Assembly (NCBI GenBank): GCA_002633005.1
Contig: NMRA01000091.1
Location: 953,820-1,017,819, forward strand
Reading direction: 5' to 3'
Length of the DNA stretch: 64,000 nucleotides
Origin: Phoronis australis
Taxonomy: Eukaryota > Animalia > Phoronida
Positions 12,260-63,850 of this stretch are shown here, piece after piece (position 1 is the first letter of the stretch; each line of letters opens with the position of its first letter). The notes under the pieces are model-generated. The model saw only the letters and a program-made list of their open reading frames with translations, did not search any database and was not told the DNA's origin. The position numbers and the translations under genes are program-made.

Positions 12260-12405
12260 AATGTCATGATGACCCCGAATGGGGGTCATCGACTTGCAAA
12301 CAGAAGAAGAAATCTTGGTGCGAGGACAGACGCTATGAGCCATTGCGGACGGCGTACGAGATGTGTCCCGTGACGTGTGGCTTCTGCATCCCATGTCCTG
12401 CGTAG
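12260..12405 (+). CDS. Terminal coding exon of an upstream gene: one ShKT domain then stop
   Basis: Acceptor tttgtgttacag, phase 1. Translates xCHDDPEWGSSTCKQKKKSWCEDRRYEPLRTAYEMCPVTCGFCIPCPA*, with the ShKT C..C..C..CxxxCxxC pattern. AATAAA at ~12660. No upstream exons identified in the window. Confidence 0.8.
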
Positions 12406-14806: not shown

Positions 14807-14896
14807 ATGGCACATCCTCAGTTCGCAAGACAAGCTACGAAAACAACCACATGTAGGAGCATTGTGTATTCGTGGTGTATTTTGACCTTGATTTCG
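14807..14896 (+). CDS. Exon 1: start and most of signal peptide
   Basis: aagATGG context. MAHPQFARQATKTTTCRSIVYSWCILTLIS, then gtaagt donor, phase 0, matching exon 2. Confidence 0.7.
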
Positions 14897-17800
14897 GTAA
14901 GTTTAAATTTGTCTAACTCAGCATCGACGTATCTTAGATAAACAAGTGTACCATGTTTGTTGAATGTGCACTGATACGCTACACCGTAACTTCATTTTTA
15001 CATAGGTTTTCGGTATCTATAAATGACTAAACGATGGGAGCAAATTTTAGTGTTAAACTGACATGAGCTAGATCCTTGAGCACTGACTACCATTCAAAGC
15101 GGAGCTCCCAAGATACTTGTGTTCTGTATACAAAACATTACGCAGTTGAAAAATTTAGGCAAACCTTGTATTTTTGAGAAACCTAATCAGTTTCATATTC
15201 GGGGTAGTAAAGTTTCGTTTCAATGTAGAAATACTAGAATTTGTTGTCGGCATGAATAGTGACTACATGGATTTTCACACAGTTTTGCATTACATTCGAT
15301 ATCAGATTGCCTGCTTTGCAAATAACAGTGTTTGACACGTTGAGAAAAACTGTCAAGAAATACGCTTGGTTTACCAAATCCTTATTAATCCATACATCTG
15401 AAAATCCAAACACTGACAGACGCTTCCTTATAAATTTTGCCCGATCAGGTCTGACTGAAAAAGCATATCATATGCAGCCTTTACCCCACGAATATAAGGC
15501 ATCTCCAGTATTTTTAACCAGTATTTTATACTTGATACAAAATGTTTAGTAAACAATGGGAATCGAAACCATGCAACAACTGCCTACTCCTAAAATGAGT
15601 TAACAAAACTTGATTTGTACATTATCCAATTGTTCATATGCCACGTGTTCCGCCGTATTGGTGGCCAGCAAAATCACACTGTACTTATGGAACCTGGAAA
15701 ATTTTCAAAATAGAACTCGAAAGTTTAAGTACAAACAATGTTTTAAAATATTAGTGACATAAATATAATTTATTCCACATATATAGGAATACTGCTGTCA
15801 TATCCTATCGAAAAATCATTTCATCTGGGAATTTCCCAACGAGACCCTATATGGACTTAATTGCACCATCGCCGCAAAATCGAGTTCCCGTGTGCTCCGG
15901 CTTGTTGTTATACGAAATTAAAAAATAATTGCAGGTGGTCTGATACACGTTTTACCAGAAGTGCGCAGTCCTTGCATGTGGGCCCATTGCACTGATAACC
16001 TGGAAATATTTTTAATATGCTTTATTAATATATAGTTAAAACGGAGCTGCGGAGCTAGAAACCTGGCTCAACGGTTTAGCAGTGTGACCTGGTGGGACTC
16101 GAACCTGCGAACTCGAGTAAAGAAAGCGTGAACTTATCAACCAGGCCCCATTGCTTCCTCTGTTGTTACATGTATTAATTCGTAGAAACGGCGCCCAACT
16201 AGTGACCGGTTTAACATGACAAATACACATACGCGGACTTAAAATAGTGAAATTCAGACACCTATTACCAAGCCTGCCTTAAGGGCTGACAAAGTTTTTA
16301 TTGTATTAATTTCAAGGGCATGGAGTCTTCAACATGTCCATGTTATTATTTTTAGTTTTCTCGCGGGGGCAGCTTCGCCATTAGGGTACAACTTACTGCT
16401 GTTTTTTGACAAGAAGGAAATGTACCTCCACGGAAACAGTTACAGTGTTACCACGGTAACCGATATTTTAGTGTCAGTGCCGTTTTTTACTGACATTGGT
16501 CATAAACCTATCATGTTATATCAAAATTGTTCAGGAACGATTCTGTTTGAAGCAGAAACTGGAGTAGAAAATTTCGTAAAAATGACTCATTCCACATCAA
16601 GAAATTGCCTCATTTTGCCCCCCAGAACACTTCCCTTGTATCTCCTAATCCACCAAACTTTGTGGTGTCATACTTCACCCAATTTCTCTCATCCGTAATG
16701 TGATTTATCAGACTAAACACTAATCTGAATGACTGACCCCCACGTTGCCGCTTGTTGGCTGTACAGTGGTCGGTGGTTTCGTGGACTGATACTTAACACG
16801 AATAGAATGTCTTGATAAGTTTAGTCTGAACCTTCTTTAACTTCAACGATGAAGTACGTTTTATCAATTTTCCGTATGGTATGACAGCATACGTTTCCTT
16901 AAGACAAGCACACTTGTGGACAACACTGATAAATGGTTATATCACCCGCTTCTTTGAACTCATTTCTTTGTAATATACTTGGCAACACGTAGTAATTAGT
17001 GGCAATTAAAATGGTCAACAAAGAGCACGTACTTTGGACTGCTATTTTATCGTCAAACAAACGAAACCAATCTAGTCTGTCTTTAGGCATATGCTATGAA
17101 CACTTTTAAAATTTGTTGTTCTTGTTAAAGGTCATTTAAACTTAGGAATACCCGGCATTTTATTTAGTATAATCTTCTGCAGGGGAACTGTGTGTCAGGG
17201 CTTTGGTTCGAAAAGGACCCTAAAGTGATGGAGGTGATTAGACAAGAATTCATATACGTCGACAAGCCAAGTCTAGACCAAGTGTTTCAGGAAGAGCTTG
17301 TGTCGGCGTCAGGTAAATGCTAGTACAGAATATACATGTAGAAATGGACGAAATGGAAACAACTCAAGTCGAACTTCTTGTCAATTCCTCAGAAACATAC
17401 GGCATGCCAATCCAATGTTTGTACTTTAGAATTTTTGATACAACTCTAGACACTAGGTCACAAGCTCGTCGCATAGAAATTAGTAAAAACGTATAAATTG
17501 TTCAATTTGTTTTACTTTCTCATAAAAAATAATAATAATACCTCCGTCCCACCGGGGGTGTCATGTCCATGCGGTGCTTGTATGGCATAAACCGCAGTGG
17601 CACCGCCATAATCGTCGTGGTTCTCCAGGGATTCCCCCATTCATCGCTGCAGCACCGCGGAAAACTGTCAAAAACGCAGACCTTCGCGGTGGCACGGCGG
17701 CAACTTTGAACATGTTCAAAACTTCTGCAGTGCCACCGAGGTTGGGCCAATCCGCTGTGGAATCGCCGCGACACCGTCGTGACCGCCGCGACACCGTATG

Positions 17801-20800
17801 AAGGACCACATTAGCACCTCCATCACCGCCGTGCTTCCGCAGCACTACCAGAGTGCAATCGTCGAAAACGTAGACTGGCGATCTTACGGCGATCACGTGG
17901 GGCGAAGACAAATGTACACATGTATGCGTGACGGCTATGGAAAACTATGAAACACTACTGGCGGTGTCATTACGGTACAAGCGTTTTGACCAAAACCGTA
18001 GTGGCACCGCGCCTCTGGTTTAACCCGCCGATGTGTGCCCAAGGTATGGCTTCCGTGCGATCTATATTGTTATATCTAATTAGATACAACCAGTGGCTAA
18101 TCTATAATATCACAAGGGTGGCTCAACATTTTGTCTGTTAACATTTGCTCAAAGCACGATTGTAGATGCGCACAGCACCGAATAGGGGGAGATCGGGAGG
18201 GGATTTTTCTAATTTTTCCTCTAAAGATCAAGCATTGTCCTTGATTCCCGAAGTATTATCCAAGAAAACTAGGCAAAAAAACGAAGAAGGTGACAGCCAG
18301 GAAAAACTACAAAGACCCCAGACTCGAACTCACGAGGTAGCGGACATATCGCGCGTGCTTTACCACTGCACCACCACGATTCAACTCCTAACTTGTTACT
18401 AAGAGACCTACTTGTTTATGGTTCACAGCTTATTACATGTTTTGTATTTTGTGCAATCAGTTCGTAACAAGTTTGTTGTGTTCAAAATAGTCTTCAATTG
18501 CACAAAACACCAAATCCGTTTTTTGTGTTGGCAATAATGACGCGATTTCTTTGGAAATCGTCTTAAGTAAAGGTTTGACAAAGAGAGAATTATGAGTTTC
18601 TGAGTGATTCACACAGGCTTCGATTAAAATTGACATCTTACTTGCAGCTTCTGTTTTTTCACCATCACTTGGATTCCATTTTCTTTAAAAATGATGTAAT
18701 TTTCTTCATTGCACAGTGGAGGAGATGACGGAAACGGAGTCGTGGTGCCCATCGCCACTGCCTGTCGCCTGAGATATCGCGGGAGAGCCTAAACTTACCC
18801 ATTGTTCCGTTACGATTGCGCCGTGTTCCGAACTTGACACTCGAAATTGGATCTGAGCTCCCCCCCCAAAAAAAACACTAAAACTACACACATCTAAATC
18901 TTGTTTCATCCGTATAATTTTAATTACCGGGGTTAATTAGTATCCTAAACATTTCCCTACGCTTTTGCTGTTTTATTTTTTTGCGGTAGCCAACGGGGGG
19001 GGGGAGGCGGGCGCCTGCCCCCCCTAAATCAGCCTATGGCAACAAAGAGAAACAACGTTAGCTTCCCTCAGGCGATAACCATGTGACGCGTAATACGTCC
19101 GTCGCATGGATCGCGCAAGTTATACAATGGCCTGTGACTTCCGCACGACGTCATTTGGCATGGGTGTGACTGTCAGTGAGACGTGAAGTGCGCAAGAGAT
19201 TTACGGCCTGTTTCATACCTCCGCTCAATGACCTTTCTGTGATGAAAATATAAAAAACTGACCAGTAGTCAGAATTCCAGTTTTGAATGAAATCATGAGT
19301 AACTGTAGGTCTCAAACGCTCCACAATAACGTCTCTCCGTATATTGAATATTTTTATTGGTTACAGAGAATTCATCGAAACAGGGCAAATCGTTGGGTAA
19401 CGCGGAAAAGGCTGACCTGGTGATACTGGAGCTTGACATATTCGCGACAGTAGAGCAGTACCTACGCAAATTCATCCAATCAATTTCAAAGTAAGCACAC
19501 ATGTAAATTTGTGCATGGACAAGCAGCAGTCATAAAATAAGGCTTAGAATGTCACAAGTTTCCTAAGAAGGGCACTTCCGTTATAAACTGAGGCCTAAGT
19601 AACCACAGATATGAACATGGATATGTACCTTAGGTAAGCATAAAAGTGTACATGGACAGATACCTTCGCCATAAACCGAGACCTAGGCAAACACAAATGG
19701 TTATGGGTGGTTATTACAGTCATGAATCGAAAGCAAGTATTGGTAAGAATAAATGAGTGCATGGACAGTTGAGTGAATTAAATCTCAAGTCACTTTACAT
19801 AAAACGGATCCGTGTACTATTTTGCATTTAAACCTCCAACTTGTTATTTATATCTTGAAAGTACAATCAACGCCTTATAGCACAATTCAGCAAAACTTCC
19901 AAATTTCAAGTTCACATCTTTTCTTGGAAGGTGTCTACGAACATGTGGTTAAAATGATAAAAGAAACTGGAGCGAGGTAAATATTATCTGGTACGTCAAT
20001 TTGCTAACTGAGCACGGCTTCATGGTGGCAACACGAGTCTCAATAGAGTTAACCAAATTCCTAAAAAGGGTATCATTGGTGTTTTGACTGTGCAATATCT
20101 TCAGGTAATGGTTTACTGCACATACTGTAGATCGCATCCTTTCAGGTCAATAAGGAAAAAGCGAACCTATTCTTATGGTTACGGTCGTCTCTTATGGCCC
20201 AACGCGACAATACCATATAAAATATACCCGATGCAGTTTAGTAAGTATTTTTACACCACTTGCGTATTGATACATGTACGAACGTGTAAAAAGCATGTAA
20301 CGTGTCCGTGCAATGACCCAAGACATTAATGCACGGCTACGTGACCATAAATTAACAAAACCATCGTCACGTGACCAAAGCAGACCTACGTTCTACAGCT
20401 GGAATTCTATAGTTTCGGCCTTATCAAGCGGAGTTTAAGATGAATAAATTACACGAATTCACGTTGCAAAGACTGGGAGGGCTGTAGCCCTCTCCCCAAT
20501 CATCTGAGTTCTGTCTGTCCCTTGGTCACACAGGTGGCCCAGCATAGGGGGCTGGGGGACTGTACCAGCCACTTATTTCAGTACTGCACCGCCCCTGCAT
20601 TTATTATACATTTAAAAATTAAACAAATGTATTAAACTGGGTATCATTTGGTAATTGAAATCGCAAATTCTACTTATAATAAACGTGTACTGTTTCCTAA
20701 TTGGCCATTATTGTTGCTCCTGTCACAAACCCGCCCGTTCACGACAGCTTGTAAACTAAGCCGGTGTAACTGATCAATGAAAACTCCAGTGGTAACCACA

Positions 20801-23800
20801 GTAGCATTTTATTTTTATCACCTCGTGGTTACTAAATAGCAGTTGTAACATCCAAGTAAACTCAACCAAAAATTTATTTAAATGACACATTATCGATAAA
20901 TTTGCATGATTAGTCTACCTCCAATCCGGAACCGAAACAAAACCGATGGCAAAAACGCACAAAAGGAGGTCAAAATAGCCATCACTATCGTTCGAATAGT
21001 AGTCCCTACCTCACAGTGAAACAGGGATAAACAGAAAACTGGTGACTCTACATAAAAATAAAAAATGTACGAAAAAAAAAAACGGAAAAATGGTGTTTAG
21101 AATACAATGTCAAATATCGTGTACTCACATCACCAGAATGAATTGTCAGTGTCATTGAGGGAATTTAAGACTCAGTGGAGAAATTGAGGTTTGATCTTTG
21201 TTTAGTCGTGCAATCTGATTTGCACTCCATTCACCCCCCTTCCGGTCTCATTTGATAAGAACTGCGTCATGAACTCCGGTGAGCAATCCCTAAAATTACG
21301 TCATCATAAAGGTATGAGATGTCACCATAGGAATGGAAATTTGCCTTCTAAATACTCAAACATGAACCAGCTTTTGAACGAAGCTTCAAGAGAATGAAAG
21401 CAAATATCTTACAGTTACAATTTTATATTAACTAAAACACATGATTTCGTTCTTGTTTGATTGCAAACGTGTTGTACTCGACATTTTACTCGCACCCAAA
21501 TTTTTAGTACGTCGAACGACGTTAAAGAATAACTTTATCAGCGTTATGGTTTGGACTTAGTTAGTTTTGCTTATTCGCCGCTTCGGGTGCTAGTTTTCCT
21601 ACCGATAAATTTAGAGGCGAGTGGTAAGCTACTCTCTGACACAACGCCAACTTTACTGAAAAATGACCCTGTGGAAAGATGATGAAAGACACGTAATTCC
21701 GTCTGTGGGCAACAATGTGCATGGTTTTTTGGAAGCTTACCGGTCACATTGCCACCACTTGAACACGCCATCTATGCAACGAGCTTGTTTGGAATTAAGC
21801 CATTGGATCGGGGTTGCCTTGATTTTGTTTAAGTTGATTACTGCCAGTTTAAATGAATTACAACTATTCAAGTCAACGTAACAGAGAACCGGAAGGGGTT
21901 CCCACAGTTCAACCAATGGGATTGAGTGAATGTTATGACATCGTTTTCTTTTCTTTAACCAATGATAATCCATGTAATGGGAAGATGACGGAGTGAGACA
22001 ATTCCTACATATGGTACCACACTTCTTGCTAGTATGAGTGTTTTACTCATGCTAAATGCTTACTAGGCACCTTTGCAGCAGGGGATCACTTAAAAGTACC
22101 ATTAGAGGGTTCTTCATCAGGATTGAGTAATTATGGCCTTTTACCAAATTCAATCATCTTGTGGTGTCCTTATGCTCCCGTGAGTACATGTATGTCCGTG
22201 ACGTCAAATTACACCATTTCTTCACATTTTGCGATTTTCACTGTAACGAATTCGTTTACCATCAACGTTATGACTTTTTTTCAAACAGACCAAAAGGAGC
22301 TTCAGCTATTAAGGATAGCAATGAGTCAATGGGAACACTTTACTTGTATCAAGTTCAAGAAAGAAGAGGGCACAGGCCACTTTGTAGAATTTCAAGGCAA
22401 AATCGGAGGATGCTTGTCTCAAATAGGATACTCTCAAACAATTTCACCCCAGATCGTTCGATTGCACAGTCCTGGGTGCAGCAATGTAAGTAAAACAGTA
22501 GGTCATGGAAACAAATTGAGACTGTCTAGCTTGTACAATGACAGACAATGATGAAAAACAGAATTGCATGCTCTTCCCATATATAGCGATCAATAGACGT
22601 GTCCATTGCTCACTTTGTTTTTCTTTCTTATTATCAATGTAATGTCAGTCATTTATTGGTAAGTGGCCCAAGTTCCATGTACATGTACGACATCCATGCC
22701 ACCCGTGTGTTGATGTCCAACAAAGACGCAACAAACGAAATAATGGGAGTGTCGCATAGGCGATAACCATGCAAGGTGCTTAGGCCCCTCGTATGAATCT
22801 CGCAAATTGAACAATACCTTGCAACCACCATTTGACGTCATGTGGCATGGGTTAGGAAAGCCTTTTGGAAGTCAGGAAAGCTTTTTGGAAGTTCGAAAAG
22901 AGTATGTAACATGTCGACATGCTGGCTTGATTTTTGCAACACTCTGTTTAGTGCTTATTTTTGTGCAGTTAAGCTGGGAACTGGAACGTGCGACCTAACA
23001 ATGCAAGAGTTAAAGGACGAGAATGAAATGAGAGAATACATTTGTATTTGTAGCTTCATATTGTCTTTGAAAGCTAATGGGGAGTTTCCTTATCATGCAT
23101 TAACATGTATTGCAAACACTTCAACAAGCTTCACAATTTAGTTTTTAAAGTTCCTTTGCTTTCATTGTATATGCAACAATCATTGATAAAACTTAGCATT
23201 TTTACGGGGAGTGTTTTTGAACATAGTGGTAACCCATATTAATTCAATTCGACAACGTCAAAAACGCCATGAGTTCCGAGTCAAAGTTTCTTGCGGGTAA
23301 AGCGTGATCCGGTGCACAAGTCCGTGAGATATCGCCTTATGCGTTTAAGGTCATCTGATTTTGCTAGATTTCTCCTGCCACGCATGCTATTGAACACAGC
23401 CATGGTCTACAACTTTGTGTCTTTTGACGAATTTCACGCAAGNCCATCTTCGGAATTCGACAAATTCTTACACGAGCTTCAAGGTTTTTATTTTTGCTGT
23501 TAATAAATTTACTTTGTTTATATTTTACTTTTTTTGGTCATAATGCATTGCCCCAGAAGGTGCAATAACTCCTGACGACGCAATGTCAAAGTTCATGCCA
23601 AAATTCTCCAATAATTAGCATGATCGTTAGTAAAGGTTTTGGCGTACATGTTATTGCCAGTAGAATATAGACTTGCTTATTACTCTGCTTTAGCTTCCGT
23701 TTCCAATCAGGTTACAATAACAGTACCACACCTTCCGCTAAATCAAGACTAGAGAGATCCGTTTATTTTTTCAAACAATGTCAAACGTCTAAGATTCTGT

Positions 23801-26800
23801 TGAAAGCATCCCCTTCTTCTCTGGAGAATGAAGCAATGGAATGCATTTCCCAGCAAGCCATTTCATTTGGGATGCTTGATCAACCAGTGGCAGATCTACG
23901 ATTTCAGTAAGGGGGGGGGGTTAGGATTCGAGAGAATCCGAGGCGCGTAGCGCCGAGGAGAAGGAAGGTCGCGAGAGGGTTTCCCTCCTCCCGTGTAAGA
24001 TTTTTTGGGATTTTTAGTAACTAATTTCGTTTTTCTGGCGATTTTTTTCCAGTTTTTATTTTTTATCCTGTCCCGAGGGGGGGTTTAAACCCCCTGAACC
24101 CCCCCTGTAGATCCGCCTCTGTCTACAATACCTAAATTATTGCCTCTTCAGGTTTGAGTTTGGTGTGCCCATTTCTCCGGCTACTTAATACGAGACCCAG
24201 CTTACAAGCACTGATAAATACAAATATGTGGGTGTTATGATTGATAATAATTTGTGGCACATGCTTAGTATGGGTGCACAGATGTTTTTCAGCGGATTGG
24301 CGTTTGTACAGAGTCAGGAGCTATGTCGGTCAGGCTACTCTTCAGACTCTGTACAAAAGTCTAATTGTAACAAACCTTGAAAACGGTGATGTTGTGTGAG
24401 GTAGCTGTGCGTCTTACCTTCAGGTTAGATTTCAAAAACTACAAAGCATGGCTGGAACGCTGATACTCAACTATAGTGGCCGTTGTAACGAAGCTCTTAT
24501 TTCTGACCTCCTCAATACAGTTTGTGTGTGGGGCCTGGTTAGCAGGTGTGCCTTTCATTTAAACTTGATGGTGAACAAAGTCACACATAGACTTACATAT
24601 AATTACCTCACCACTAAATTCAGATCACTCACAGATTTTCAAAGTATCAATGCCAGAGCGGGTATTTCTGGCTGCCTGGTACCAAATAAACTAAGAGGTT
24701 TTGCCTACAGAAGTGATGTCGCTTACAACGGGCCGAGGAGTGAGGACTGCCGTCGTGAATGCGCCCAATGTCCACCTCTTCAAACAGAAATACTGATAAT
24801 TTGTGCGTGGTTCGGGACTGTTGGTCTCAGCTCACCATCGTATTACTCTATTTTATCTTATTCGTTTTCCCCGAGTAATTTCCAGTTATATCGCCATATT
24901 CCTGAAAAGAGAAGGAACTCTTTCCACTTATACCTCCTTAGCATAAACGGTTACGTCACAAAAAGGTATCAGTTGCCACTTTGCGCGAAACTATGCGAAT
25001 AGGACCGAAAATTGAAACACTTTGGTTATTAACAGGGATACTATAGAACCTTAGTTAAAATTATAACGCTGTATACAGACTAAAATGAAATTACAATTCT
25101 CAGCTTTACTGGAGTGCGGATTGAAGGAATACGGAAAGCTACTTTTATTCAAATTGTATCCAAGGATTAATCTATTAAGCTACGCGTTGAACCGTAATGT
25201 ATACAGTATATTAAATAGGTTTCCACATAGCAGAAATACATTTTCATTCAAACTAGACGCTGCTAGTTTTTGCAGAGATCTGTAGTGATTGGTGTTGCCA
25301 TTTTACCCCACTCCTTAATTTTTTCTATCAGGTGTACTTCCTACTATTAGTGTGACTGTCCCTTAAGCCGGTACACAAATCTAAATGATTTTATTACAAC
25401 TTACATGTATATCAGTTCACTTTTACAACGAGGGTTATTTGACAATGCCGCTTTTGACCTGTTTCAATATCGATAAAGTTGCAAACTCGCAGTTCCTGTC
25501 GTTTCAGCTACCGACTTATCTACACACGCTGGGACACATCATCGGTCTTTCTCACGAATTTAACAGCCCGGATAGAGATAATTATATCACCATCAACTTT
25601 AATAAAACAACTTCTTCAGAAAATTTCCGCAAGCGACGCTACGACGAGGATGTTTACAACGTGGAATATGATTTCACTAGTCTCATGCACTTCGGGTTAA
25701 AGGTACTATATTTCTGGAGGTCAATTCTTTTCTAAGGCTCGGAGCTTCGGTTTCAAATTCTTGTACTCAAAATGGATATCGAAATATTCTTTTGCATTTT
25801 CTATGTTGTTTAATTTTGTGGTCAATTATTCTGTGCTTGAGTGAATTATGGTTTATCTTTTTTCTAACTCATGTTTTCATTCCATTACTCCTAGATTCGA
25901 TTAAGAGAGTGAAGTAAAACTCGAAATGTCAAGTCCAAGCTCTAAATTTCGGGGCGAGAATCTAGCCTTTACATGTAATTATAGATCTATACACAATAAG
26001 TGGAAATTGGGACCAGGCAGTTAGTCCTACCATCCAATGTGTACTACTCGAGCAAAGAAAAATGGACACATAGATTGAGTTCAGACCGAAGTAGAATGAA
26101 GAAAATGAAAAAAATCAAAGATTCAAATTTGATGCCTACGGTCTAATATTTTACTGAAATTGAAATCGAATCCTTTTTAATATTCTGTTTTCTTTCAGTT
26201 TAGAAAAAAATCAAGACAAGTGTCTGTTGACTTGGTACTTGAAATCTCGTGTCCGGTGTTGAGTTTGTAGCTCAAATATAGGCGTCATCCAGTGTGAGGG
26301 TGAACTAAACACATATTTCATGCCTAAACTTAAGCGAACAAATGCAAAGCAACCATCATTTCATATCGAAGTAGACAGGCAATTACTGGCATAATTTCTG
26401 TATTTGGAGTCCGGGGATAAGACTCCCGGGTCTACTCAAGCGATGTAAAGTTCACCATGACTCGCACAATGCGTGGTGGGGTTACAGCTTCCAACCTACA
26501 TGTATTTGGGTACACTCATGATCCCTGTGCTAATATTGCTGAGGGAACTCTATTTTTTCCGTAACAAACACAAGCATGGTCACGTTTAAATCATCAAAGA
26601 GATACGTATATTTTGCACGAATGGTGACTCAGACTAGGTGGTCTACCTTTGTCCAACCATACTGCAAAAGTGGAAACATGATTGATGAATTGACATCTAA
26701 GATACTCAGTTGTTTATTTCGTTTACGATAAAATGAAAAGAAAATACACCTTCTGATGTGTGCAAGCTGTCTTGGATTTCATGCAAAACTTGCACTGATA

Positions 26801-29800
26801 TCGGTTCACATAATGTGCAAGCTGTCTTGGATTTCATGCAAAACTTGCACTGATATCGGTTCACACAATGTGCAAGCTGTCTTGGATTTCATGCAAAACT
26901 TGCACTGATATCGCTTCACACAATACTCAAGCAGTGCCACAAACAGAATATCACTAAATCATACAACAACAAACATGATCAAATCTCAAATTATCAGGAG
27001 AATAAAATGTTAAAACATTGCGCCGGTAATTACTAGGAAAGCCAGGTGTTTTTTTTCTGTGCCAAAACAATGGATTAGTAAACATCTTCAACAGGGAACG
27101 GAGAACATTTGAGGACCTTATGGCGTGCAGGCTGTGACAGGTAGACCTACGTAGTTCCCCATACGTGACCAGGAATTAATTAAAAGTAGCACATCGGCAA
27201 AAACAATGATTACCGATCTCAAATGTATACTCGCCTTCGTTGACCTAGACTGAATCTAAAACGATATATTAAACAGTTTTTAAACGGCGTTTCGTGGTAA
27301 CTCGGGCAGAAACACTTCTCAAAGAGGAAAATGCTTGTATTGGTTGGGCTTTGATCCATGACCCAGTTAACCATTTATTGTCCGGGCATGACAAAGTCAA
27401 AAATGTAAAGTGTTGTTGGGTAATATTAGGAAACCAAGACATCGTCTTGCTCTGTGCCAATCATCCTGCGATGCTGTGTGATCTAGTACCAGAAACAGGT
27501 TGGCTGGTCGCGAATAGACACACCGGTATCAGTCTCAAATCCATTTCCCCTAGGCCTTTTCCATAGACGGCTCCCAGACAATTTTTGCCAAGGACAAAAG
27601 GAATGAAGAACTGATAAGTACTCAGGCAGGAAAAGAGATACGTTTCAAGGACATAAAATTAGTCAATTTGATGTATAAGTGTAACGGTATGTATACATAT
27701 TTTGCATATGGGCTATTTCACGCAGTGTAATGGACGTTGCTAGTGTTACGCAAGGCATACTTAGATCGTGGTATTGTGGACTCGGTGAAAATGGTCACCT
27801 GCTCTGTAAGAAGTACACGCAGCCTATTTACTTTTATAAAACATGTTTTAAAATTAAATCTGGTTAAAAGTGTGGTTGAATCAGGTTGGACTATAATGTC
27901 GATTTCAAAAATGCTTTTTATACCTTTTAAACGACTGGTTTAGTAAAACTTGGTTTAATTTTGAGCACTGCCTAAACCCGTTTTGATTCCATAGACAACA
28001 ACATAATCGTCAATTCTTTTCCTCGAATATGCTCTATTCCAAAACGAAACAGTCATTCTTTCTCAACCAAGAATCAAATGTGCAGTTGCTGTGAATGATT
28101 TTCAACGAAGCTTTTTAAAACGATGGCAAAGCACACGGGAGAATCAAAACTCAAGAAACGTGTTTCTTATTGCTTTTATTCAAACCGCAATGTAACTCCA
28201 AGGTGTCGTAATAATACCTTCACTTGTTGATTTCAATCATAATAAAATAAAACCAAGTAGCCATATTATCAGTTGTGAATATTGTTACACACTAATTAGC
28301 TGGGCTAGAGAGAATGTTTTAGAAGCTATTTGCTAAGTCTCAAATGTGGTGTCAACACATATTTTCGAAAATTCCTTGTACGCAAAACGAGATTATTACG
28401 GCAACTAAGACTCATCGAAAACATTTTCAGCAGTGTTTGATTAAAAATGTTTTAGGGAATAAGAAAACACAATTCAAGTAAAGAGTTCCATAACATCAAG
28501 TTTATTTGGGGTCGCATGGAACCTGAAAAGCAAAGGTCTTGGGGATGTCTAAAATCATGAACACACAAATCTTTGGACAAATAGATAGGATCCCGTTTGG
28601 TTGTTACTTTCGAGAATTGACACAGTTGGCTAAGTTCTCTAAAAGCGGAATCTCGCGAATAAACCTAGTGTAATCACGTCATGTTCGATGGTATTTTACG
28701 AAGTTATTGTGATGTTGCGTTTTTCCGTGTGTGCTCAAGGCTACACATCCCATAAAAAGTCATGCAACGTAATAATTCCGTTATTTTTCAAATAGCCAAG
28801 TGCACAGCAGACATTCGGTGCAGTGACGGTGGTTTTGTAAACAAAGACTGTAAGTGCTTCTGTAAAGACGGCACCAACAGCTGCCAAGAGGGTGGACTGA
28901 AACTCCCTACAACAGGAACAGGTCTGTAATCGGGACCACGTGATGTCTGATTAGTTGTATCCTGGCAATGTTTAACAAATACACAAAATGTGGAACTAAT
29001 ATGAACTTTTTCATTTGTGCGTCGATTGTCCGTTTTTGATTCTAATCTGGCCGTAATTAAAAGTGCAAGCTGCTGTTAACGTCACTCCGCTCTTTTTACG
29101 TGTACATGTCATCACAGGGGTCAAACAATTTTAATGCTGATAAATAGTTCTTACAAAGATGACAAAATCCAGTTCTTAAACAAATATTCTGTTATATGGC
29201 TACTTCATGGTCGCACTGAATCCGTAAAAGACTTAGTAAATGATGAGGCAAATGTGACAAAATTCCTTGACCATGATCTGCAATTGCTGGATTATTATAT
29301 GGACAAGCCTATCATGTATCACATATCTCGAGACGTGGGCTTGAGTTGTTGTCTCTATGTAGAAAATGTAAAATGCGGATTTTAATTAACCGAATTGGTG
29401 AACTCACAGGTTTGGGCAATTTTGCATGTGAAACATACATGTACAGTGGAAGTATTGTAGTGGATTATATTTTACCGAGTGGAAACTCTTTATCATCAAT
29501 TAAGCGTTTTGAAGTTGGCGACCAGGTTGACTTGCAGCATTTCCCGCTTTATTGTATTTTCAATTATAACTTGAAAGTGGAAACCAACATCTTAACAGTA
29601 TGCAACAAAGTATACAGAAAAATGAATTGGAACAAACCTACTAAAAACACGAAATGCATGTCGATGAATAGCACTAACTGTTTAAAGTCATCAGAGATAT
29701 CACCCCAGGGTTACTTGTTATATGATGCGTGTCCGATTTAGTTGAGAGCTCAGCTTTGAGGTCTGGTATGAAGTTTGTCATTGTACACATGGATTGGTGT

Positions 29801-35800: not shown

Positions 35801-38800
35801 GGTTTTCTTCAATTTTATTCTTCTTATTTTCATTCTTCTTCCGACCAACTTTAAGGCTTAATAACTCCAAATTGGGTGCAGGCACGGTCTTTAAATTCAG
35901 CATAATTGATTTTTGTCAGTACATAAATTTTGATTCGTTATATAATCATATTCCACATTGCACCGGAAGAGGTAATTCGGTGCAAAGATAATGTGATTTC
36001 AAAATGGTTCTCTTTCTTCATTTTTAAAGCTATTCTTTTCAAATTCGGTGAACAGGTATAAGTCAATTTTTCTAAGTAATCGAGTCATCCAATCAGTTGA
36101 AATACGTCAATGATCATTAGGTGCAAACTAACATTTTAAACTAGATACATCAAATTGACAGGTCTGATTGGCACAGTTAATTCAATTTGAGATCAAAAGT
36201 TTCAGATCATTTAGTGCAACCATGGGGTCATTAGGTACATTTTTCTTCTGAAAATTTGACCTTTTCAATCGTGAACTATTGTGATGTGTCAACCGTTAGA
36301 CAACTGTGATTCTCAGCATTAAACACATTTTTGATAGGCTTTGCAATAATTCTCCTAAAGACGCTTACGATGTATAATGCACCGGATAGGGTCAATTAGT
36401 GCAAAGGTCATGAAACGTTGAAAATATTGTATGTCTTACGTTTTTCAAGGAATTCTTTTGAATTTCAGCACACTGGTGTAAGTCAACATGCCAATTGAAT
36501 ACCCTACTTTATTCGCAGTAGATCTAACCAATCAGAAAAAATGGTCAAAGGTCATTGAGTGCAAACTAGATTTACTAAATGCGATTGAGTTTAAATTCCA
36601 AATTTTCAGGTCATTTGGTGCACCCATAGGGCCATTAGGTGCATTTTTCTTGTGAAATTTAGACCCTTTCATGCATCTTGTATTCTGAAGCGCTTAAAGT
36701 AAAACATCTGTGATTCTTAGCATTAACCTCACTTAAAGTCGAGTTTACAATTATTTCCTTACTGGGGTTCACAGTGTACCGGAAGAGGTCAAATAGTGGA
36801 AAGGTCATCAAATTATTAACATGTAATTTCTCTATATAATTTTAAAGAATTCCTTTTCATATTGGTTAACGGGTTGCTGTCAGTAACTTCCCAAAACAAT
36901 TCCAGTAATACGCACGCGCAGAGTCCATTATTGCCACTATTGTCACGGCGTGACAACAATCAATCTAGTTTGTTTGTGGTATTAGTGCCGAGTGGTCTGT
37001 GATTTGGGTTCAAGTTTTAGGTAAGCGTCTTTCTTGTGTGGTAAGAATTTCTTGGTTTGTGTGGTGTGGTTGCGGCAATAATGTTGTTTCTATGACTGAA
37101 CTAGCTGCCTTGCATTGAAACGTGCTGTTGTAAAGAACATTGGCTGAAATTTTGGTAGCAGAACATGCGAAAAACAAATGTCTAGGGCAACATGACGGCT
37201 TATTACCAGCACGTACTGCCTTAAACCGTCTGCGACATTTTCAGGCAACTAACTTCAATGCAATTTTTGTGGCTAATAAGGACATGCTCCCGAATGTGAC
37301 AGAAAATTCCTTTTATAGTACCAAAATACTTACTTTTTGTGGAGTACTTTAATGTACTTCATCAATGCAAACTTGTCGTAGCATCTTACCTATGGGATTT
37401 GCTTATCTTTTTTGGTCATTGTCAAGTGATACATTCGCTGGGTTTTTGTTATCATTTTCTCTGGTGATGGTAGAGCGCTGCACACATTGATGAATTCGTT
37501 ATGTTGTTGCCCTACGAACCTTGTCTTACAAACGGGACGAAAACGCTCGAAATCATGAGATGTACACATGACAGAGTACAGGTATATGTAGATAGATCCA
37601 AATTTTAAAAGCACCTTGGTGACGTGCAATGGTAGGTGAAGTGGTCAATGCCTTGTTTATGTACACTTTTATTCCAAACATAACTTGATTAAACGATCAT
37701 GAAATTTCGCTTAGAACAATTTCACCCTCGTTGATGCCGTTGTTTATGGAACTGATCGCCACTTGTTTTCGCCAACGACTGTTTGTCTACCCTTAACTTG
37801 CCCGCGTTACCCAAGGGTATTCAGAAAAGTTCAGCGTAAAATCCCAACCACGGCGCCGGCATATGATGTTAAACGATTTGTTTTTAATTTTTTGTCTCCG
37901 TTTCAGGATATTGTGAAAATCGTCACGGTGACGAAACATGTTCTATTTTGGCGTTTGCGTGGTTTTGTGACCATTTTCCGGCATACATGATGTCGGAGTG
38001 TACTCAAGCTTGCGGTTTCTGCGACCAAAAAGACAAAGGTAAGTGATAAGTACCTCAATCTACAATTGAGACGTGTTTAACGAATATAATTAGCAATTGA
38101 AAAACTAAACTATTGCTATGGCCTTATTTGTCTTACACATCTCAAGGACGTACATGAACCCAGAGTTGATTTTACGTAAGAGCACGTCATGTATTTTGCA
38201 TTCCTCACAGATGCCTGTGTTTGCATCTGTTTCGTTTATTTGTTCTTCCAATTTCAAGACTCATACAGCGATTTTATAATAGTTTCCAAATATAATAATT
38301 ATTTCATCTAGCAGAGAGTTATTTCACTCTTTTTCCCCGTTGCGTTGGGGGAAAACAATACATTGCCATTTTGCCAAATTATTTAGATTTCGCCAGTCCA
38401 TGAAACTTGTAAAGTACACGACAAGTCTGTTTAAATATATGGCTGTTGCACGGTCTTACGAATTGCGTTAATCTCGAATTGTCTTCCATGTCAAATTTTG
38501 CAATCTACAACAAATCGACGCAGGTTTGTTCGTTACAGCAGTATGCAAGAATTTGTGGAATTCAACTGAGTGCGATGTGTACGCCAATTTCGGTTACTGT
38601 CGAACGTCCAAAGAATGGATGGTTGCCCATTGTCGCCAAAGTTGTGGTATTTGTGATCGCACAGACTCGTCCTGCACCAACCAGTACAAAGACGATGCTA
38701 AATGTTACGCGTACGCTCTGGGTGGGGAGTGCCTGGGTAATATCAANCACAGACTCTTCCTGCACCAACCAGTACAAAGACGATGCTAAATGTTACGCGT

Positions 38801-41800
38801 ACGCTCTGGGTGGGGAGTGCCTGAGTAATATCAAGTGGATGTACAAAAACTGTAGACGGGCTTGTGGCATATGTCAGGGTCTTCCTGGAGGTATGAATAT
38901 TGTACATGCAGCATTATTTTGCATTTGTATCACTGTTGCTTCTGAGATTTCATAATAGTGAGTGTTGATGGTTGTCAGTGAAGTGGAATTTGCTTCTTAT
39001 TGGCTTATGTGATCGTGGTGCTGCAACCAGGGGTAGATACATGTACGACTCATGTCTGATCTCTTCACGCGGCACAAACGTTACACTAATGTTTTGACGA
39101 AAAACATATATTTCCTTTTCATCATTCCTGGATATCTAATGTTCCACAACTGGTCATTATTTCATCTGTTCCTCATCACCACTGACACAACTTAGAGTAA
39201 AAACAAAAAAATGGAGACGAACGTGCTCAGCATGTTCTTCTCATGCTTGGAAATCAGCACCGAATACTTTACCTTCTCTAAATCAAGTCACGCCTTTGAG
39301 TAGTGGCTTAAAGACAAGAAGTTAAATACCACCAAAGTCACAAGTTCAAGGAGGGCTTTTTAGCAGCCTGCCTCGTACACATCCGGGTAATTCGAGGATG
39401 TTCCCTAACCAATAACGAAAGTTCGTGTTCGAGCGGCCACATTTTGCGTGCCCCTAAACTTACGTGAGTGTGAATTTTAAGGTACATGTACTTGAACCCT
39501 GAAATCCGCCATATTAACTATCTAACTTCCTTGAATTGGTAGTTTTCTGATTGTTGTGGAAATTTTTTCTCCATTTCACCAGTCGGAATAGCAGTTTAAA
39601 AGGCTTATGGGAAGATGACTTTTGAGGGCTTGGTTTTGGCAATTCCAGGCTGACGGAAGTACATCGTGATTGTACATTTAGTTGAATTTGAGACAATTGA
39701 ATTTGCACTCATACATGTAAGAACTTCACTGCAAGAATAACATAGATTAAAGTTTATTGAAAAGTTGGAGTCGACGAAATTTAAAGCCGTTTGGTAGAGT
39801 AACGGTAATTAAAACATTAACTATTTCTAAACTTAATTTTTTGTTGTCAAGTTTACCAAATCCACCAGTAAAAGTCTTGAATGAATTGAATACGACATTT
39901 TTCAAAATTGTGTGGCAGGCTCGTAGTGCTACAATTGAACGAACCACGGCCTGTTTAGCACTTGATCGTCGGGGTCTTCATATGATTAATATGCATACTT
40001 TCAGCAAAGCTTTAAAATTCGCTATGGCCCGTAGATATCTTGAAAGCCTTGCGTCTAAAAGTGGTGAATTAGTGTACTCACTCTACCCGTTCTTAAAGAA
40101 TTTTGCTTCATTTGGAAATGACTTTGTTGAGTCGAAGTTAGCTCTAATTGGTAATTCCTACTGGCGCGAAGTATTTGGAAGTAAGATATCTTTCTAAGTC
40201 AAGAAAATAATTGTTGCAAGTAAGGAGGAATTTTTGAATCAACCTTTGTGGTTTAATAGTTAACTTGGCTATCGGATGGACAAGTGTTTTTTATAAGCCT
40301 TGGTTTGTAAAAGGCTTAAGATTTATTAGAGGTGTGTATACCTCTGATGCTGATTTCGTTAGTTTGAACCATATGAAAAATAAGTTCGATGTAAACACCA
40401 ACTTTGCAGAATATAATGGTGAGTAGTATAGTAAGTCATTTAGGACGCCTTACTATACTACTATGGTGATGTTTCTGTTCTAAGAAGGTTTCAAAAAAGT
40501 CTATTTTAAAGTAAATTTATAAGTGTTAAGAGTGACTCCATATAAAAACCAACAGGTAGAGTCTATACCCAAAATCACCGATTTTTTTGAAACTTAGCAC
40601 ATGAGTTTGGTTTGTTGAGATGTAGAAAGGCCTCACTTTTTAAGAATTTTCATTCATTATTTTTCTTTTTATGACCTGTACCTCCATTTTGCAACAAAAT
40701 TGGGCGTCGAAGTAGGCATGTTTGAATGCATTTTACTAGCATGTGTGGTAAGGACAAAACAAATGAATAATACCAATTGAAAGGGCAATGGCTGAATAAT
40801 TTAATGGCATAACTTTCAAAATTCATTTTTAAATTTGTACTTTTTGAATTTGTGAGGCAAAAACGGCTATTTTTTAGGTTTTCACTGAAGCCATTTTCGG
40901 CCAAATTTGGCACTCTGTAGCAGCCAAAACGCACCTTTCCTGAAATTGACTTTATAATAATTTGTTTAGTCATTCCTATCCTGTTCATAATCTAAAATAA
41001 AAAATCTTGCCTCTAATGTAGTTTTTGCGTACGAAGCATTACACGAACTGCTCTTCNGTATACCTCTGATGCTGATTTCGTTAGTTTGAACCATATGAAA
41101 AATAAGTTCGATGTAAACACCAACTTTGCAGAAAATAATGGTGAGTAGTATAGTAAGTCATTTAGGACGCCCTACTATACTACTATGGCGATGTTTCTGT
41201 TCTAAGAAGGTTTCAAAAAAGTCTATTTTAAAGTAAATTTAAAAGTGTTAATGTCTCCGCTCCTGGCAGGACTCTAGTAATCACTCACTTACGGAAAGAT
41301 TTGAAGGGTTGTAGACATAGTTGTTCAGTCTTTAATGACGTTAAGAAACCTCCTACATGTAAGTCAGAGTGTATATGGGAAATAGGGTTAGGAGATAATT
41401 TAGATTGGAAGAAAATATACGCATTGCCTTATGAAATTACAAAGGATCCTAACATCATATGGTTCCAATTTAAAATACTACTTAGGATTATTGCAACAAA
41501 CACCTTTTTAGTCAAAATCCGTGTTCGGGAATCTAATTTATGTCCCTTTTGTACTGAAGGTCCAGAGACGCTGTCACACCTTTTTTGGGATCGCGTGTAT
41601 TTTAAAAGTGCGCATTTGACGATATCGTTTGCGTAATAAAATAGCATAGCTCAATTTCTCGCTGCATATGGTTATCTTACTTGGTGACTCCATGGCCGCA
41701 AATTCTTGAAGCCTACACAACATGTTGGCAAAAAAAAAACACGGAGAACGTGTTAAACAGGAAAAACTGTAAGTAACACAGACTCGAACTCTCGACCTGG

Positions 41801-44800
41801 CGGATAGAACGCGCGTGCTTTAGCACTACACCACCTCGATTTAACTCCCAATGTGATACTATGAGACCTACTAGTTTATGGTCCAATGCGTTTGCGCGTG
41901 AAACCTACTTCTTTCTGCAATGCTTATTACACGTTTTATATTTCGTGCAATCGGTTCCTAACAAATTCTTTGTATTTACAATAGTCTTCAAATGCCCAAA
42001 AGACCAAATCCGTTTTTCGTGTTGGCAATAGTGACGGGATTGCTTTGGAAATTGTCTTAAGTTAAGGTTTGGCAAAGAGAGAATTTTGAGTTTCTGAGGG
42101 ATTCATTAAGGCTTCGATTAAAAATCACATCTTACCAGCAGCTTTTGCTTTTGATCGTCACTCAGGTTCAATTTTCTTTAAAAAATGAAGTAATTTGTTT
42201 TCATTCCACAGTGGAGCAGACGACGGAAACGGAGTGGTAGCGCGCAGCGCCACTGCCGGTCGCCTGGGAAATCGCGGGAGAGCCTATACTTAGCCATAGA
42301 TCCGTTAAGATTGCGCCGTGTTCCGATATTGACACTTGAAATTGGATCTGACCCCCTCCCCCCAACTTTAAAACTGCACACATTTAAATCTTGTTTCATC
42401 CTTATAGTTTTAATTACTGGGATTAATTAATAAACTCAACATTTCCCTACGCCCTTGCTGTTTTAATTTTTTGCGGCGGCCGAGGGGGGCCCTAATTCCG
42501 CATATGACTGCACAGATATCGAGCAGTTCGGAGAACGTATATGGTACTTGAAGACTCAAAATTTTAAAATTCGCTTCCCAGTTGCTTTTTTAACCTACCA
42601 TTCGATGCCATTGTTCATGATGCATTATGTCGGTCTCCGATTAGGCGCCTATCTATTTTCAGCTGGTGGCTCGACCAGCAACATGCATACCGCCACTCGG
42701 AGCAGAACCTAGCAGTTCGATTGGTCAAACATGATGCCTATCATATCGTGTGGGCAATTACATGTACATTTACTACAGACGCTACTAATCTCCTACATAT
42801 CACATTGTGTTTCATGGCTGAATAATTGGCGCTTCCAAAGTTTCCAGTGGCGTAGGATAATCGATGCCTCCATTGATTTCGGGTGGATTTTTAATATTGC
42901 TCGCGAGACGAGAGAGAGAATAATGTCATTAGAGAAACGCAATAGGTAAAGGAGGCACACTACCTACAACGCTGCTATTCCACTACTTCAAAATTTACTG
43001 GAATTTACTATCATATGCTCCATTACTTCCCGATGCCAAAATCCCGAAAAATGCGCATTGATTAAAATAGGAAGTACACCAAGTAAACAGGTGTTCAGTC
43101 CACTTTCCGAAAATTTCAGAATTATGGTCCTCTACCAACCCTCTAGATTCAAGTGTATTGCATACCAATTCCAGTGCTGTGTAAAAACGTCCACTCTTCT
43201 GAAGACGAATGTGTCCAAGACGCGCATTATGGATTGTGTGGATCAAACAACAGATGGATGGTCATGAAATGCATGAAAGCTTGCCACCACTTCCTGTGTC
43301 ATGATGGACCGGAAGGATGTGACAACAAATATGGTGACCAATGCACCGCGTGGGCACAATCGGGGCAATGTACTGTGAACCCGTTTTTTATGTTCTATTA
43401 CTGTGAGAAAGCTTGTTCAGAGTATTTGTGTTCAGGTGAGTTTCAACGTTTGACATTTAACTTCTGGTTAAATCTCTCTTGGGCAAGCGAATGTGTTTAT
43501 TTATAACTTCAAGGTGTTGATCAATTGATCATCGCGTATTATAATAACGTCAACGATAGCGTATTGTTTTTTGGGTTGGCGAGTTTATCGAAAACTAGTG
43601 TAAGTTGGCGAGGTCCTTGAGGTCTCCACGTAACCTATATCTCTATTCATCCACAAACTATGAAACATTTGACTGTACTAGAATTTTATGAGAGAAATTA
43701 CCTTACGCGATGATAATCAATCTTGGAAAAAACTCATTCTGTAATTACTCTGCGCGTGTAAGCGCAGAGTACTGTTGTTCCTGGGTTTTCTTAAATNCGA
43801 TAGCGTATTGTTTTTTGGGTTGGCGAGTTTATCGAAAACTAGTGTAAGTTGGCGAGGTCCTTGAGGTCTCCACCTAACCTATATCTCTATTCATCCACAA
43901 ACTATGAAACATTTGACTGTACTAGAATTTTATGAGAGAAATTACCTTACGCGAAAAAACTCATTCTGTAATTACTCTGCGCGTGTAAGCGCAGAGTACT
44001 GTTGTTCCTGGGATTTCTTAAATTGTATTCTTATTCTTATTCTTATTATTATTACTCTGCGCGTGTAAGCGCAGAGTACTGTTGTTCCTGGGTTTTCTTC
44101 AATTTTATTCTTATTCTTGTTCTGCTTCTTATTCTTCTTCCGACCAGCTTTGAGGCTTAGTATCTGCAAATTGGGTGCAGGTACGTTCTTTAACTTCAGC
44201 ATATGATTTTTGACAGTACATAAATTTTGATTCCTTATATAATCATATTCCATATTGCACCGGAAGAGGTCGTTTGGTGCAAAGGTCATAAAAAATTCAA
44301 AATGCTACTCCTCCTTCAGTTTTAATGCTATCTTTTTCAAATTCGGTGCATAGGAATAAGTCAATCGGACAATTTAAAAAAAATAGTTTTCTGATTAATC
44401 AGGTCATCCAATCAGGTTAAACAGGTCAAAGGTGATTAGGTGCAAACTCAAATTTTGAGCTAGACACTTCAAATTCACAGGTCTGATTGGCACAAGTAAT
44501 TCAATTCGGAATCCAAAGTTTCGGGTCATTTAGTACTAACTTGGGGTCATTAGGTGCATTTTTCTTCTAAAATTTGACCTTTTCATTAACCAAGTATTCT
44601 AATGAGTCAACTGTGATTCTCATCATTGAACGCATTCTTCATGGTCTTTTCAATAATTCACGTAAAGACTTTTATAATGCACCAGATAGGGTCAATTAGT
44701 GCAAAGGTCATGTAACCTTCAAAATGTTATATCTCTTACGTTTTCCAAGGAATTCTTTTCAATTTGAGCACACTTGGGTACGTCAACATGCCTATTGAAT

Positions 44801-63399: not shown

Positions 63400-63850
63400 A
63401 TGTCACACTGTTGATGCGTACCAGGATGTACTATTTATCGGCTCACGCGCGCTTTGGGAGTACCTTTGCATCGCTTTCCGATGGATGACACACTTCGCCG
63501 TACTTGGCTCGTTCGTGTGAAGAACGCAGCGTTACCCGTCCACGCAACGTACAAAACAGTGGAAAATTAACCGTGTGTGTGGCAAGCACTTTCTGCCGTC
63601 CGATTACGAAAGGGATTTGTACGCTGTACTGATGAAGGTCCCTGCGAAACAACGTCTGAAGAAGGATGCCATTCCGTCTGTGTTGATTCCCGGCAGTGCC
63701 CCGTCGCCACCCCCAAAAAGTGCGTTTTTGAAGCGAGAAGCCTCGCGAGCTGTGGCCAGTACAGTGACTGGAGCCAGTGGAGGCACTCCATCTACTGTCA
63801 CCCGTGCCTCCGAACGTACCCCCAGAGCGTGCAATTCCTGGAACCAGTAG
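63400..63850 (+). pseudogene. THAP-domain ORF relic (transposon) in intron 18
   Basis: MSHC*CVPGC...LHRFPMDDTLRRTWLVRVKN.../RVCGKHFLPSDYER...LKKDAIPSV, with an in-frame stop and a frameshift. Similar to the THAP relic at 33016-33324. Confidence 0.8.

What the first reader, a model, noticed from the sequence alone, without database searches (positions are those of the whole stretch)
25508..25702. Astacin pseudo-protease: catalytic Glu replaced by Thr and switch Tyr by Phe in an otherwise intact gene
Seen: the motif is HTLGHIIGLSHEFNSPDRD (Thr codon ACG, 25526-28, two changes from GAG, so unlikely a single base error) and the Met-turn is SLMHF (TTC, 25691-93). Established: astacins use HExxHxxGxxHExxRxDRD and SxMHY, where the Glu is the general base and the Tyr is the switch residue. 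Three consensus positions are changed (E>T, R>S, Y>F). The three Zn histidines, four domain Cys, signal peptide, propeptide, RKKR site and all splice phases are retained. Inference: a selectively maintained non-catalytic secreted astacin acting as a binding protein, decoy or scaffold.
Basis: partly seen in the sequence, partly recalled or inferred. Interest (0 to 1): 0.82.

Follow-up and report, generated by a model that had tools for sequence, protein, structure and literature searches.

The report
Expressed astacin protease lacking catalytic residues
A marine-invertebrate gene for a secreted zinc protease is strongly expressed and correctly spliced although two residues needed for cutting are replaced, so it likely makes a non-cutting binding protein, a kind known in related protease families and recurring in astacin sequences.

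Summary
ACG (Thr) at 25526-28 and TTC (Phe) at 25691-93 carry no variant in about 285 and 210 RNA reads from two runs. Seven GT-AG joints give an open 363-codon frame: signal-like segment, propeptide with switch Asp, RKKR, astacin domain, EGF-like module. A third run has no reads on the catalytic exon.

The gene belongs to a lophotrochozoan astacin-EGF-multi-ShKT family, and about 12 ShK-like modules lie downstream (link inferred). Exon variants run 5 synonymous to 3 non-synonymous (pN/pS 0.17, p 0.016, only 8 sites), favouring a maintained pseudoprotease.

Corrections: R>S is not diagnostic, because 21 of 29 closest relatives have Leu there. Glu loss is not rare: 19 of 316 other astacin domains lack it, about 9 separate changes, including a chiton duplicate in this family. 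Phe at the switch occurs in 7 of those 19 against 1 of 297 Glu-bearing domains, but a tree-based test is underpowered. The scan noted Glu-less astacins on other DNA before (sea squirt, phage). No partner, orthologue or activity was tested. New member of a known kind.

The parts
14807..14896 (+). First coding exon: ATG and hydrophobic signal-peptide-like segment. An alternative 5' exon, also hydrophobic, joins 17183 in more reads but is not in the window.
   Evidence: Joint to 17183 in 81 and 70 reads; loose ends in 115 and 103 reads; not found in the window; hydropathy
17183..17312 (+). Exon 2: end of signal segment, start of propeptide
   Evidence: RNA joints; open frame
19367..19490 (+). Exon 3: propeptide with ELDI, the aspartate-switch motif (ELDM in 82 of 88 relatives matched)
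20146..20240 (+). Exon 4: RKKR convertase site and mature N-terminus, one residue longer than in most relatives and with Ser where they have Ala
22289..22485 (+). Exon 5: N-terminal subdomain of the astacin domain, three Cys
   Evidence: Pfam Astacin E 1.6e-7; joints
25508..25702 (+). Exon 6: zinc-binding helix HTLGHIIGLSHE and Met-turn SLMHF
25526..25528 (+). ACG, Thr in place of the general-base Glu
   Evidence: no variant in RNA
25691..25693 (+). TTC, Phe in place of the switch Tyr
   Evidence: no variant in RNA
27554..27686 (+). Exon 7: C-terminal subdomain and helix, fourth Cys; a conserved Gly is Ser
   Evidence: Pfam Astacin E 0.0037; joints
28796..28921 (+). Exon 8: Cys-rich EGF-like module as in relatives (EGF label from my own knowledge; no Pfam EGF hit). 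Reads run on into a ShK-like exon missing from the window.
   Evidence: 42-61% identity to relatives; loose ends in 257 and 219 reads; absent from window
37907..38038 (+). ShK-like exon, phase 1-1 (link to the gene inferred)
   Evidence: Pfam ShK E 0.001
38539..38890 (+). Two ShK-like modules; a single N at 38747 separates near-identical flanks (link inferred)
   Evidence: Pfam ShK above cut-off twice
43175..43435 (+). Two ShK-like modules, 12 Cys, phase 1-1 (link inferred)
   Evidence: own HMM E 7e-6 and 3.5e-9; no Pfam hit
46741..47344 (+). Two candidate six-Cys exons, 46741-46881 and 47198-47344 (weak or no HMM support; link inferred)
55475..56630 (+). Two ShK exons, 55475-55631 and 56494-56630, matching phases 1-2 and 2-1 (link inferred)
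   Evidence: Pfam ShK above cut-off
58345..61275 (+). Three ShK-like exons, 58345-58527, 60377-60508, 61078-61275; no stop reached (link inferred)

Best explanation
This is an expressed, correctly spliced astacin-family gene whose general-base Glu is Thr and whose switch Tyr is Phe, and it likely encodes a secreted, non-cutting protein that works by binding, mainly through a likely array of about 13 ShKT modules. Shown: codons, splicing, open frame, expression in 2 of 3 raw RNA runs, family membership, and one ShK-like exon spliced on after the EGF-like module. Inferred steps: the signal segment sends it into the secretory pathway; the propeptide, with its Asp on the zinc, helps it fold; a furin-type convertase cuts at RKKR, so no self-cleavage is needed; three His hold zinc as a structural ion, but no base activates the water, so peptide bonds are not cut; once catalysis was lost the Tyr hydroxyl became dispensable while the ring was kept. 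The dead domain would serve as a folded platform and interaction surface, as in ADAM22/23, and the ShKT array would give multivalent binding at an epithelial surface or matrix. The partner is unknown.
For: No Glu or Tyr allele in about 285 and 210 reads. Seven GT-AG joints and no stop in 363 codons. High, sample-dependent expression: exon depth in X5 and X6, none on the catalytic exon in X7; about 155 and 128 RPKM by my arithmetic. Variants in exons 3-8: 5 synonymous, 3 non-synonymous, pN/pS 0.17, p 0.016; all 3 in the catalytic exon are synonymous. 27 of 32 family-conserved columns kept. 45 of 58 clade-invariant columns kept against 15 of 68 variable ones, within the 39-50 range of the 14 Glu-bearing outgroup domains listed. 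Substrate-side features have drifted: conserved Gly to Pro before the helix, Gly to Ser in the C-terminal subdomain, altered mature N-terminus. Glu is the general base, and its replacement by Ala is used to impair catalysis; Tyr stabilises the intermediate (PMC9629494; PMC9848320). ADAM pseudopeptidases act through surfaces or other domains, and ADAM11 has Thr at the same position (PMC11266112).
Against: No binding, zinc or activity data. The link of the window's ShK exons to the gene rests on strand, splice phase and the architecture of relatives, not on reads; the exon that RNA shows next is missing from the window. The selection test has only 8 sites. One of them (25531) is a fixed RNA-versus-assembly difference; those at 7-32% could come from a near-identical second copy; and two more variants in the signal exon are non-synonymous, giving 5:5 (the table was truncated). 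The branch is long: 1.52 against a median of 0.32, which also fits relaxed constraint. No orthologue was found to date the loss.
Confidence: 0.55

Rival explanations
1. Cleft-based substrate trap or decoy. After the propeptide is removed, the zinc site, uncapped by Tyr>Phe, would bind the substrates or inhibitors of an active paralogue without cutting, and so tune its activity.
For: Three His, family Glu, Met-turn, switch Asp and RKKR are all kept. Phe at the switch occurs in 7 of 19 other Glu-less domains against 1 of 297 Glu-bearing ones. A chiton has a Glu-less duplicate on a contig of the same length as an active copy (P0264, P0246). A terminal ShK-like exon 2.4 kb upstream may end a related gene.
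Against: No second astacin domain in the 64 kb and no genome to search. Conserved cleft-side positions have changed. The co-change is not significant on independent pairs: 5 pairs, median p 0.5. Tyr>Phe is also the expected drift once the hydroxyl is unused.
Confidence: 0.2
2. The astacin domain is a passenger under relaxed constraint, or the whole gene is a young, still transcribed copy in decay.
For: Long branch. No relative with Thr at the site among 316 domains. In simulation an open frame survives 2% neutral divergence 38% of the time and 5% divergence 8% of the time. An in-frame skip of the catalytic exon is seen in 6 reads against 231.
Against: At least three base changes fell in the two catalytic codons while 15 structural residues and the frame stayed; at 10% neutral divergence that survival has probability 0.001. 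Synonymous excess. Strong, sample-dependent expression.
Confidence: 0.15
3. It is still a slow or substrate-assisted protease that uses zinc-bound water without the Glu.
For: Zinc ligands, latency Asp and activation site are kept. The engineered Glu>Ala variant is called 'catalytically impaired', not dead (PMC9629494).
Against: Both the base and the residue that stabilises the intermediate are gone. All 29 members of the sister clade keep Glu and Tyr, as do 53 of 54 further relatives. Thr cannot act as a base (established chemistry).
Confidence: 0.08
4. The changed codons are assembly or base-call errors.
For: The assembly has gaps and lacks at least two exons that RNA shows.
Against: RNA reads of two other samples show the same codons.
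Confidence: 0.01

Closest known systems
Lophotrochozoan astacin-EGF-multi-ShKT proteins ('nas-15-like'): Pecten P0155, Saccostrea P0122, Octopus P0179, Liolophura P0246, Owenia P0241, Lineus P0274-P0277
   Same: ELDM-type propeptide, RKKR, YLH before the zinc helix, EGF-like module, up to 16 ShK-like modules; best hits 33-40% identical over the model; sister position at 83/77 support.
   Different: They keep Glu and Tyr (29 of 29; 53 of 54). This copy has Thr and Phe, a longer N-terminus and a long branch. Placement is unresolved once annelid and nemertean rows are added (quick tree).
Other Glu-less astacin domains in databases: chiton P0264 (HMLGH, Tyr kept), P0119 (HLLGH, Phe), jellyfish P0011, tardigrade P0010/P0043, moth P0007/P0079, Trichuris P0008
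   Same: General base lost with three His usually kept (12 of 14); often Phe at the switch. The moth domain is shared by Chilo and Manduca.
   Different: Separate origins, about 9 changes on the tree; none has Thr; P0119 groups with another subfamily in the careful tree. None has a function in the papers I saw.
M12 ADAM pseudopeptidases (ADAM11, ADAM22, ADAM23, ADAM7, UNC-71)
   Same: Metzincin fold and Met-turn kept, general base lost (Thr in ADAM11, Ser in ADAM22/23), work by binding (PMC11266112).
   Different: Membrane proteins of subfamily M12B, most of which also lose zinc ligands. This one keeps all three His and is likely secreted.
Crayfish astacin (1AST), BMP-1/TLL-1, meprins, hatching enzymes
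   Same: Aligned zinc helix, family Glu, PDRD and Met-turn.
   Different: Active enzymes with Glu and Tyr; other accessory domains.

Membership tests
Astacin family (M12A, PF01400), by homology | Profile match above the curated cut-off | tested here: met
   46.7 bits against 22.5; exon 5 at 31.7 bits
Astacin family (M12A, PF01400), by homology | Three zinc His, Gly turn, family-specific Glu, Met-turn Met | tested here: met
Astacin family (M12A, PF01400), by homology | Four Cys for two disulfides; propeptide with switch Asp; activation site | tested here: met
   Cys 166, 188, 210, 320; ELDI; RKKR; bonds themselves not tested
Astacin family (M12A, PF01400), by homology | Signal peptide | tested here: inconclusive
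   hydrophobic stretch only; second 5' exon seen for 30 bases
Active astacin peptidase | General-base Glu after the first His | tested here: not met
   Thr in DNA and RNA
Active astacin peptidase | Tyr of SxMHY | tested here: not met
   Phe in DNA and RNA
Active astacin peptidase | Arg of ExxRxDRD | tested here: inconclusive
   Ser here, but Leu in 21 of 29 relatives that keep Glu and Tyr
Active astacin peptidase | Zinc-dependent proteolysis | not testable with these tools
   needs protein
Lophotrochozoan astacin-EGF-multi-ShKT subfamily | Groups with it in a tree | tested here: inconclusive
   sister at 83/77 on a long branch; unresolved
Lophotrochozoan astacin-EGF-multi-ShKT subfamily | EGF-like module followed by ShKT modules on one transcript | tested here: inconclusive
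   EGF-like exon spliced on, next exon ShK-like; the window's ShK exons not linked by reads
Metzincin pseudopeptidase | Intact, expressed gene without the general base | tested here: met
Metzincin pseudopeptidase | Maintained by purifying selection | tested here: inconclusive
   pN/pS 0.17, p 0.016 on 8 sites; no orthologue for dN/dS
Metzincin pseudopeptidase | Shown inactivity and a binding partner | not testable with these tools
   needs protein

The most novel reading that the evidence does not exclude
Astacins have repeatedly been converted, in at least five lineages (cnidarian, tardigrade, P0119, P0118, this gene), by the same two-step switch, Glu out and Tyr to Phe, into zinc-keeping, open-cleft binding proteins that trap substrates or inhibitors of active astacins. 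This highly expressed multi-ShKT gene would be a testable first example of an astacin pseudoprotease class with no functional description in the papers I searched.
Probability: 0.15. Interest if true: 0.65.

Novelty: new member of a known kind. Interest (0 to 1): 0.36.

Why it matters
Pseudopeptidases with known roles in family M12 are ADAMs; the 2024 review's tables list no astacin (PMC11266112). Databases still label the named Glu-less astacins found here as metalloendopeptidases or uncharacterised. This gene is a clean case, with RNA-confirmed codons, high sample-dependent expression and some sign of selection, so it is a usable test of what a dead astacin does. The Glu/Tyr co-change could help annotate such proteins. 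A specialist would find it neat, not surprising: about 6% of the sampled astacin domains lack the Glu, the loss here is seen in one species only, and no partner is known.

Tried and rejected
No whole genome is held, so paralogues outside the window were not searched. The word search with the catalytic exon gave 7 candidates and 0 hits. No close orthologue: best 55% on the exon among the 150 listed of 1992 hits; none above about 40% over the model among 79 and 104 hits. No RNA holder was listed by the run index; RNA came from runs with the same species label. Run X8 covers only part of exons 4-5. P0119 as orthologue: joined at 0.83 in FastTree, but it moved to another subfamily in IQ-TREE; rejected as long-branch attraction. 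The next exon and the alternative 5' exon were not found in the window. AlphaFold of the single exon was unusable, pLDDT 48; the spliced protein was not folded and no fold search or complex prediction was run. The ESM Atlas returned only astacin clusters. PDB search with exon 7 gave only designed 'Pizza' repeats, taken as chance. The independent-pairs test of Glu/Tyr co-change was underpowered: 5 pairs, median p 0.5 for Phe and 0.125 for any non-Tyr. My recollection of a Glu-less pipefish patristacin was not borne out by passages of PMC8012361, PMC5168715 and PMC3853555. No Glu-less astacin was described in passages of PMC2824743, PMC8191133, PMC9382459, PMC10828956, PMC4231235 or PMC9932164. 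Scan look-ups by place and sequence were empty.

Full report
Observation. The exon 25508-25702 encodes HTLGHIIGLSHE and SLMHF at the stated places: Thr ACG at 25526-28, Ser AGC at 25565-67, Phe TTC at 25691-93. It matches Pfam Astacin at E 3.7e-12 and 17 solved astacin sequences, with Thr opposite the general-base Glu and Phe opposite the Met-turn Tyr. RNA runs X5 and X6 show no other letter in those codons at a 5% floor, with depth 285 and 210 five bases from the Thr codon. A DNA contig of X1 spans the exon with 3 unplaced differences in 2322 bases; X1 may be the assembly's own sample.

Gene structure. Reads give seven GT-AG joints linking 14807-14896, 17183-17312, 19367-19490, 20146-20240, 22289-22485, 25508-25702, 27554-27686 and 28796-28921. 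The frame is open for 363 codons: hydrophobic leader, propeptide with ELDI, RKKR, catalytic domain with four Cys, and a Cys-rich EGF-like module. X5 and X6 cover the exons deeply, about 155 and 128 RPKM by my arithmetic. X7 has no reads on the catalytic exon although its repeat coverage is similar. Two exons shown by RNA are missing from the window: an alternative hydrophobic 5' exon (115 and 103 reads) and the exon after 28921 (257 and 219 reads), whose first 30 bases translate like the start of a ShK module. About 12 ShK-like modules lie at 37907-61275 on the same strand, with compatible splice phases. Six of the segments scanned pass the Pfam cut-off, three score below it, the two at 43175 are found only by my own HMM, and 46741 by neither. 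The window holds only one astacin domain.

Family. The closest relatives are mollusc, annelid and nemertean astacin-EGF-multi-ShKT proteins, the best 33-40% identical. In a 59-row IQ-TREE the model is sister to a 29-row molluscan clade at 83/77, on a branch of 1.52 against a median of 0.32. With annelid and nemertean rows added, only the quick tree finished and placement is unresolved. All 29 clade members keep Glu and Tyr, and 21 have Leu at the 'Arg' position, so R>S is no lesion. The mature N-terminus is one residue longer than in most relatives and has Ser for Ala. In astacins this end must bury and bind the family Glu (PMC9848320), so this may be a further departure (inference).

Selection. 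Exons 3-8 carry 8 variants: 5 synonymous and 3 non-synonymous over 181 and 641 sites, pN/pS 0.17, binomial p 0.016. Against this: the count is small; one site is fixed in RNA; the 7-32% variants could come from a near-identical copy; and two signal-exon variants from the truncated table are non-synonymous. The model keeps 27 of 32 family-conserved columns, where the median of 162 Glu-bearing domains is 30 and 31 of them keep 27 or fewer. It keeps 45 of 58 clade-invariant columns against 15 of 68 variable ones. Under simulated neutral change an open frame survives 38% of the time at 2% divergence, 8% at 5% and 1% at 10%. So a very young pseudogene is not excluded by intactness alone, but three base changes in two catalytic codons are unlikely within so little drift.

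How common. Of 316 other astacin domains that could be scored at all five columns, 19 lack the Glu and none has Thr (isoforms included). On a 174-row tree (237 near-full domains thinned at 80% identity) the Glu state changes 9 times. Named cases are a jellyfish, a tardigrade, two moths, nematodes, a mite and a chiton duplicate in this very family. Phe at the switch occurs in 7 of 19 against 1 of 297. On the earlier 253-domain set, collapsing by hand to 10 events gave 4 of 10 against 1 of 239, p 7e-6. The stricter independent-pairs test had 5 pairs, nearly always in the same direction, with median p 0.5, and cannot reach significance. The sample came partly from a query that itself has Phe. The co-change is a lead, most simply read as loss of an unused hydroxyl with the ring kept.

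Mechanism. The Glu is the general base, Glu>Ala is used to impair catalysis, and the Tyr swings out to stabilise the intermediate (PMC9629494; PMC9848320; PMC3268031). With both gone, cutting is unlikely. Mutant activities for astacin E93 and Y149 I only recall; the search for them gave no usable listing. The kept Asp switch, RKKR, His ligands and disulfide Cys suggest normal folding, processing and zinc binding (inferred). I rate a secreted binder that uses its ShKT array and the domain surface at 0.55, a cleft-based trap at 0.2, decay or passenger status at 0.15 and residual activity at 0.08. ShKT-astacins are mostly expressed in barrier or gut epithelia (PMC9848320), and the ShK domains of an oyster astacin were needed for its effect on cells (cited in PMC10828956).

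Literature. I saw keyword passages, not whole texts or supplements, of 13 papers: PMC9848320, PMC11266112, PMC8012361, PMC9629494, PMC5168715, PMC9382459, PMC10828956, PMC2824743, PMC8191133, PMC4231235, PMC9932164, PMC3853555 and PMC3268031. Ten searches turned up no Glu-less astacin with a described function and no mention of the Glu/Tyr co-change; subscription journals and supplements were not covered. The pseudopeptidase review lists only ADAMs for M12, with Thr at this position in ADAM11. That MEROPS keeps a non-peptidase-homologue category for M12A is recalled, not checked. The scan earlier noted a Glu>Gln sea-squirt astacin and a Glu>Met phage astacin; I did not check them.

Verdict. 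A real, expressed astacin homologue that is likely a maintained pseudoprotease. It is an astacin by homology but fails the test for an active one. Pseudopeptidases are known in M12 and Glu-less astacins recur in databases, so this is a new member of a known kind, interest 0.36.

Noticed in passing
window 12260-12405 (+): Terminal ShK-like exon ending in a stop (Pfam ShK E 0.0015), 2.4 kb upstream of the ATG; probably the end of another ShK gene, possibly a tandem relative.
   Followed up: partly
5' of window 17183: Alternative first exon, in about 60% of reads, with a hydrophobic translation; not in the window.
   Followed up: partly
3' of window 28921: All run-on reads enter a ShK-like exon absent from the window; it may lie in an assembly gap (Ns at 30837-30962, 31772, 34736).
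   Followed up: partly
window 22485 to 27554 and 19490 to 22289: Rare exon skips: the catalytic exon in frame (6 reads, X5) and exon 4 out of frame (3 reads, X6).
   Followed up: no
window 181, 10766, 31772, 34736, 38747, 43797: Single-N gaps with near-identical sequence on both sides (about 1.2 kb at 10766), probably two haplotypes joined by the assembler.
   Followed up: no
P0264 and P0246 (Liolophura): Glu>Met duplicate with a long branch (1.5 against 0.2) beside an active copy in the same family, a parallel case.
   Followed up: partly
P0007, P0235 (Chilo) and P0079 (Manduca): Two-domain moth astacins whose second domain lacks both the general base and the family Glu in two species.
   Followed up: no
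P0011 (Sanderia): Astacin-TSP1-MAM protein in which both astacin domains lack Glu and have Phe.
   Followed up: no
window 13205-13758, 39751-41633, 45219-45679, 52831-53504, 63446-63933: Open stretches that look by eye like decayed mobile elements (GIY-YIG or LINE-like, THAP-like; labels recalled, no scan run).
   Followed up: no
window 26750-26925 and 47690-48200: Intronic tandem repeats: about 58 bases three times, and a GT-rich array.
   Followed up: no
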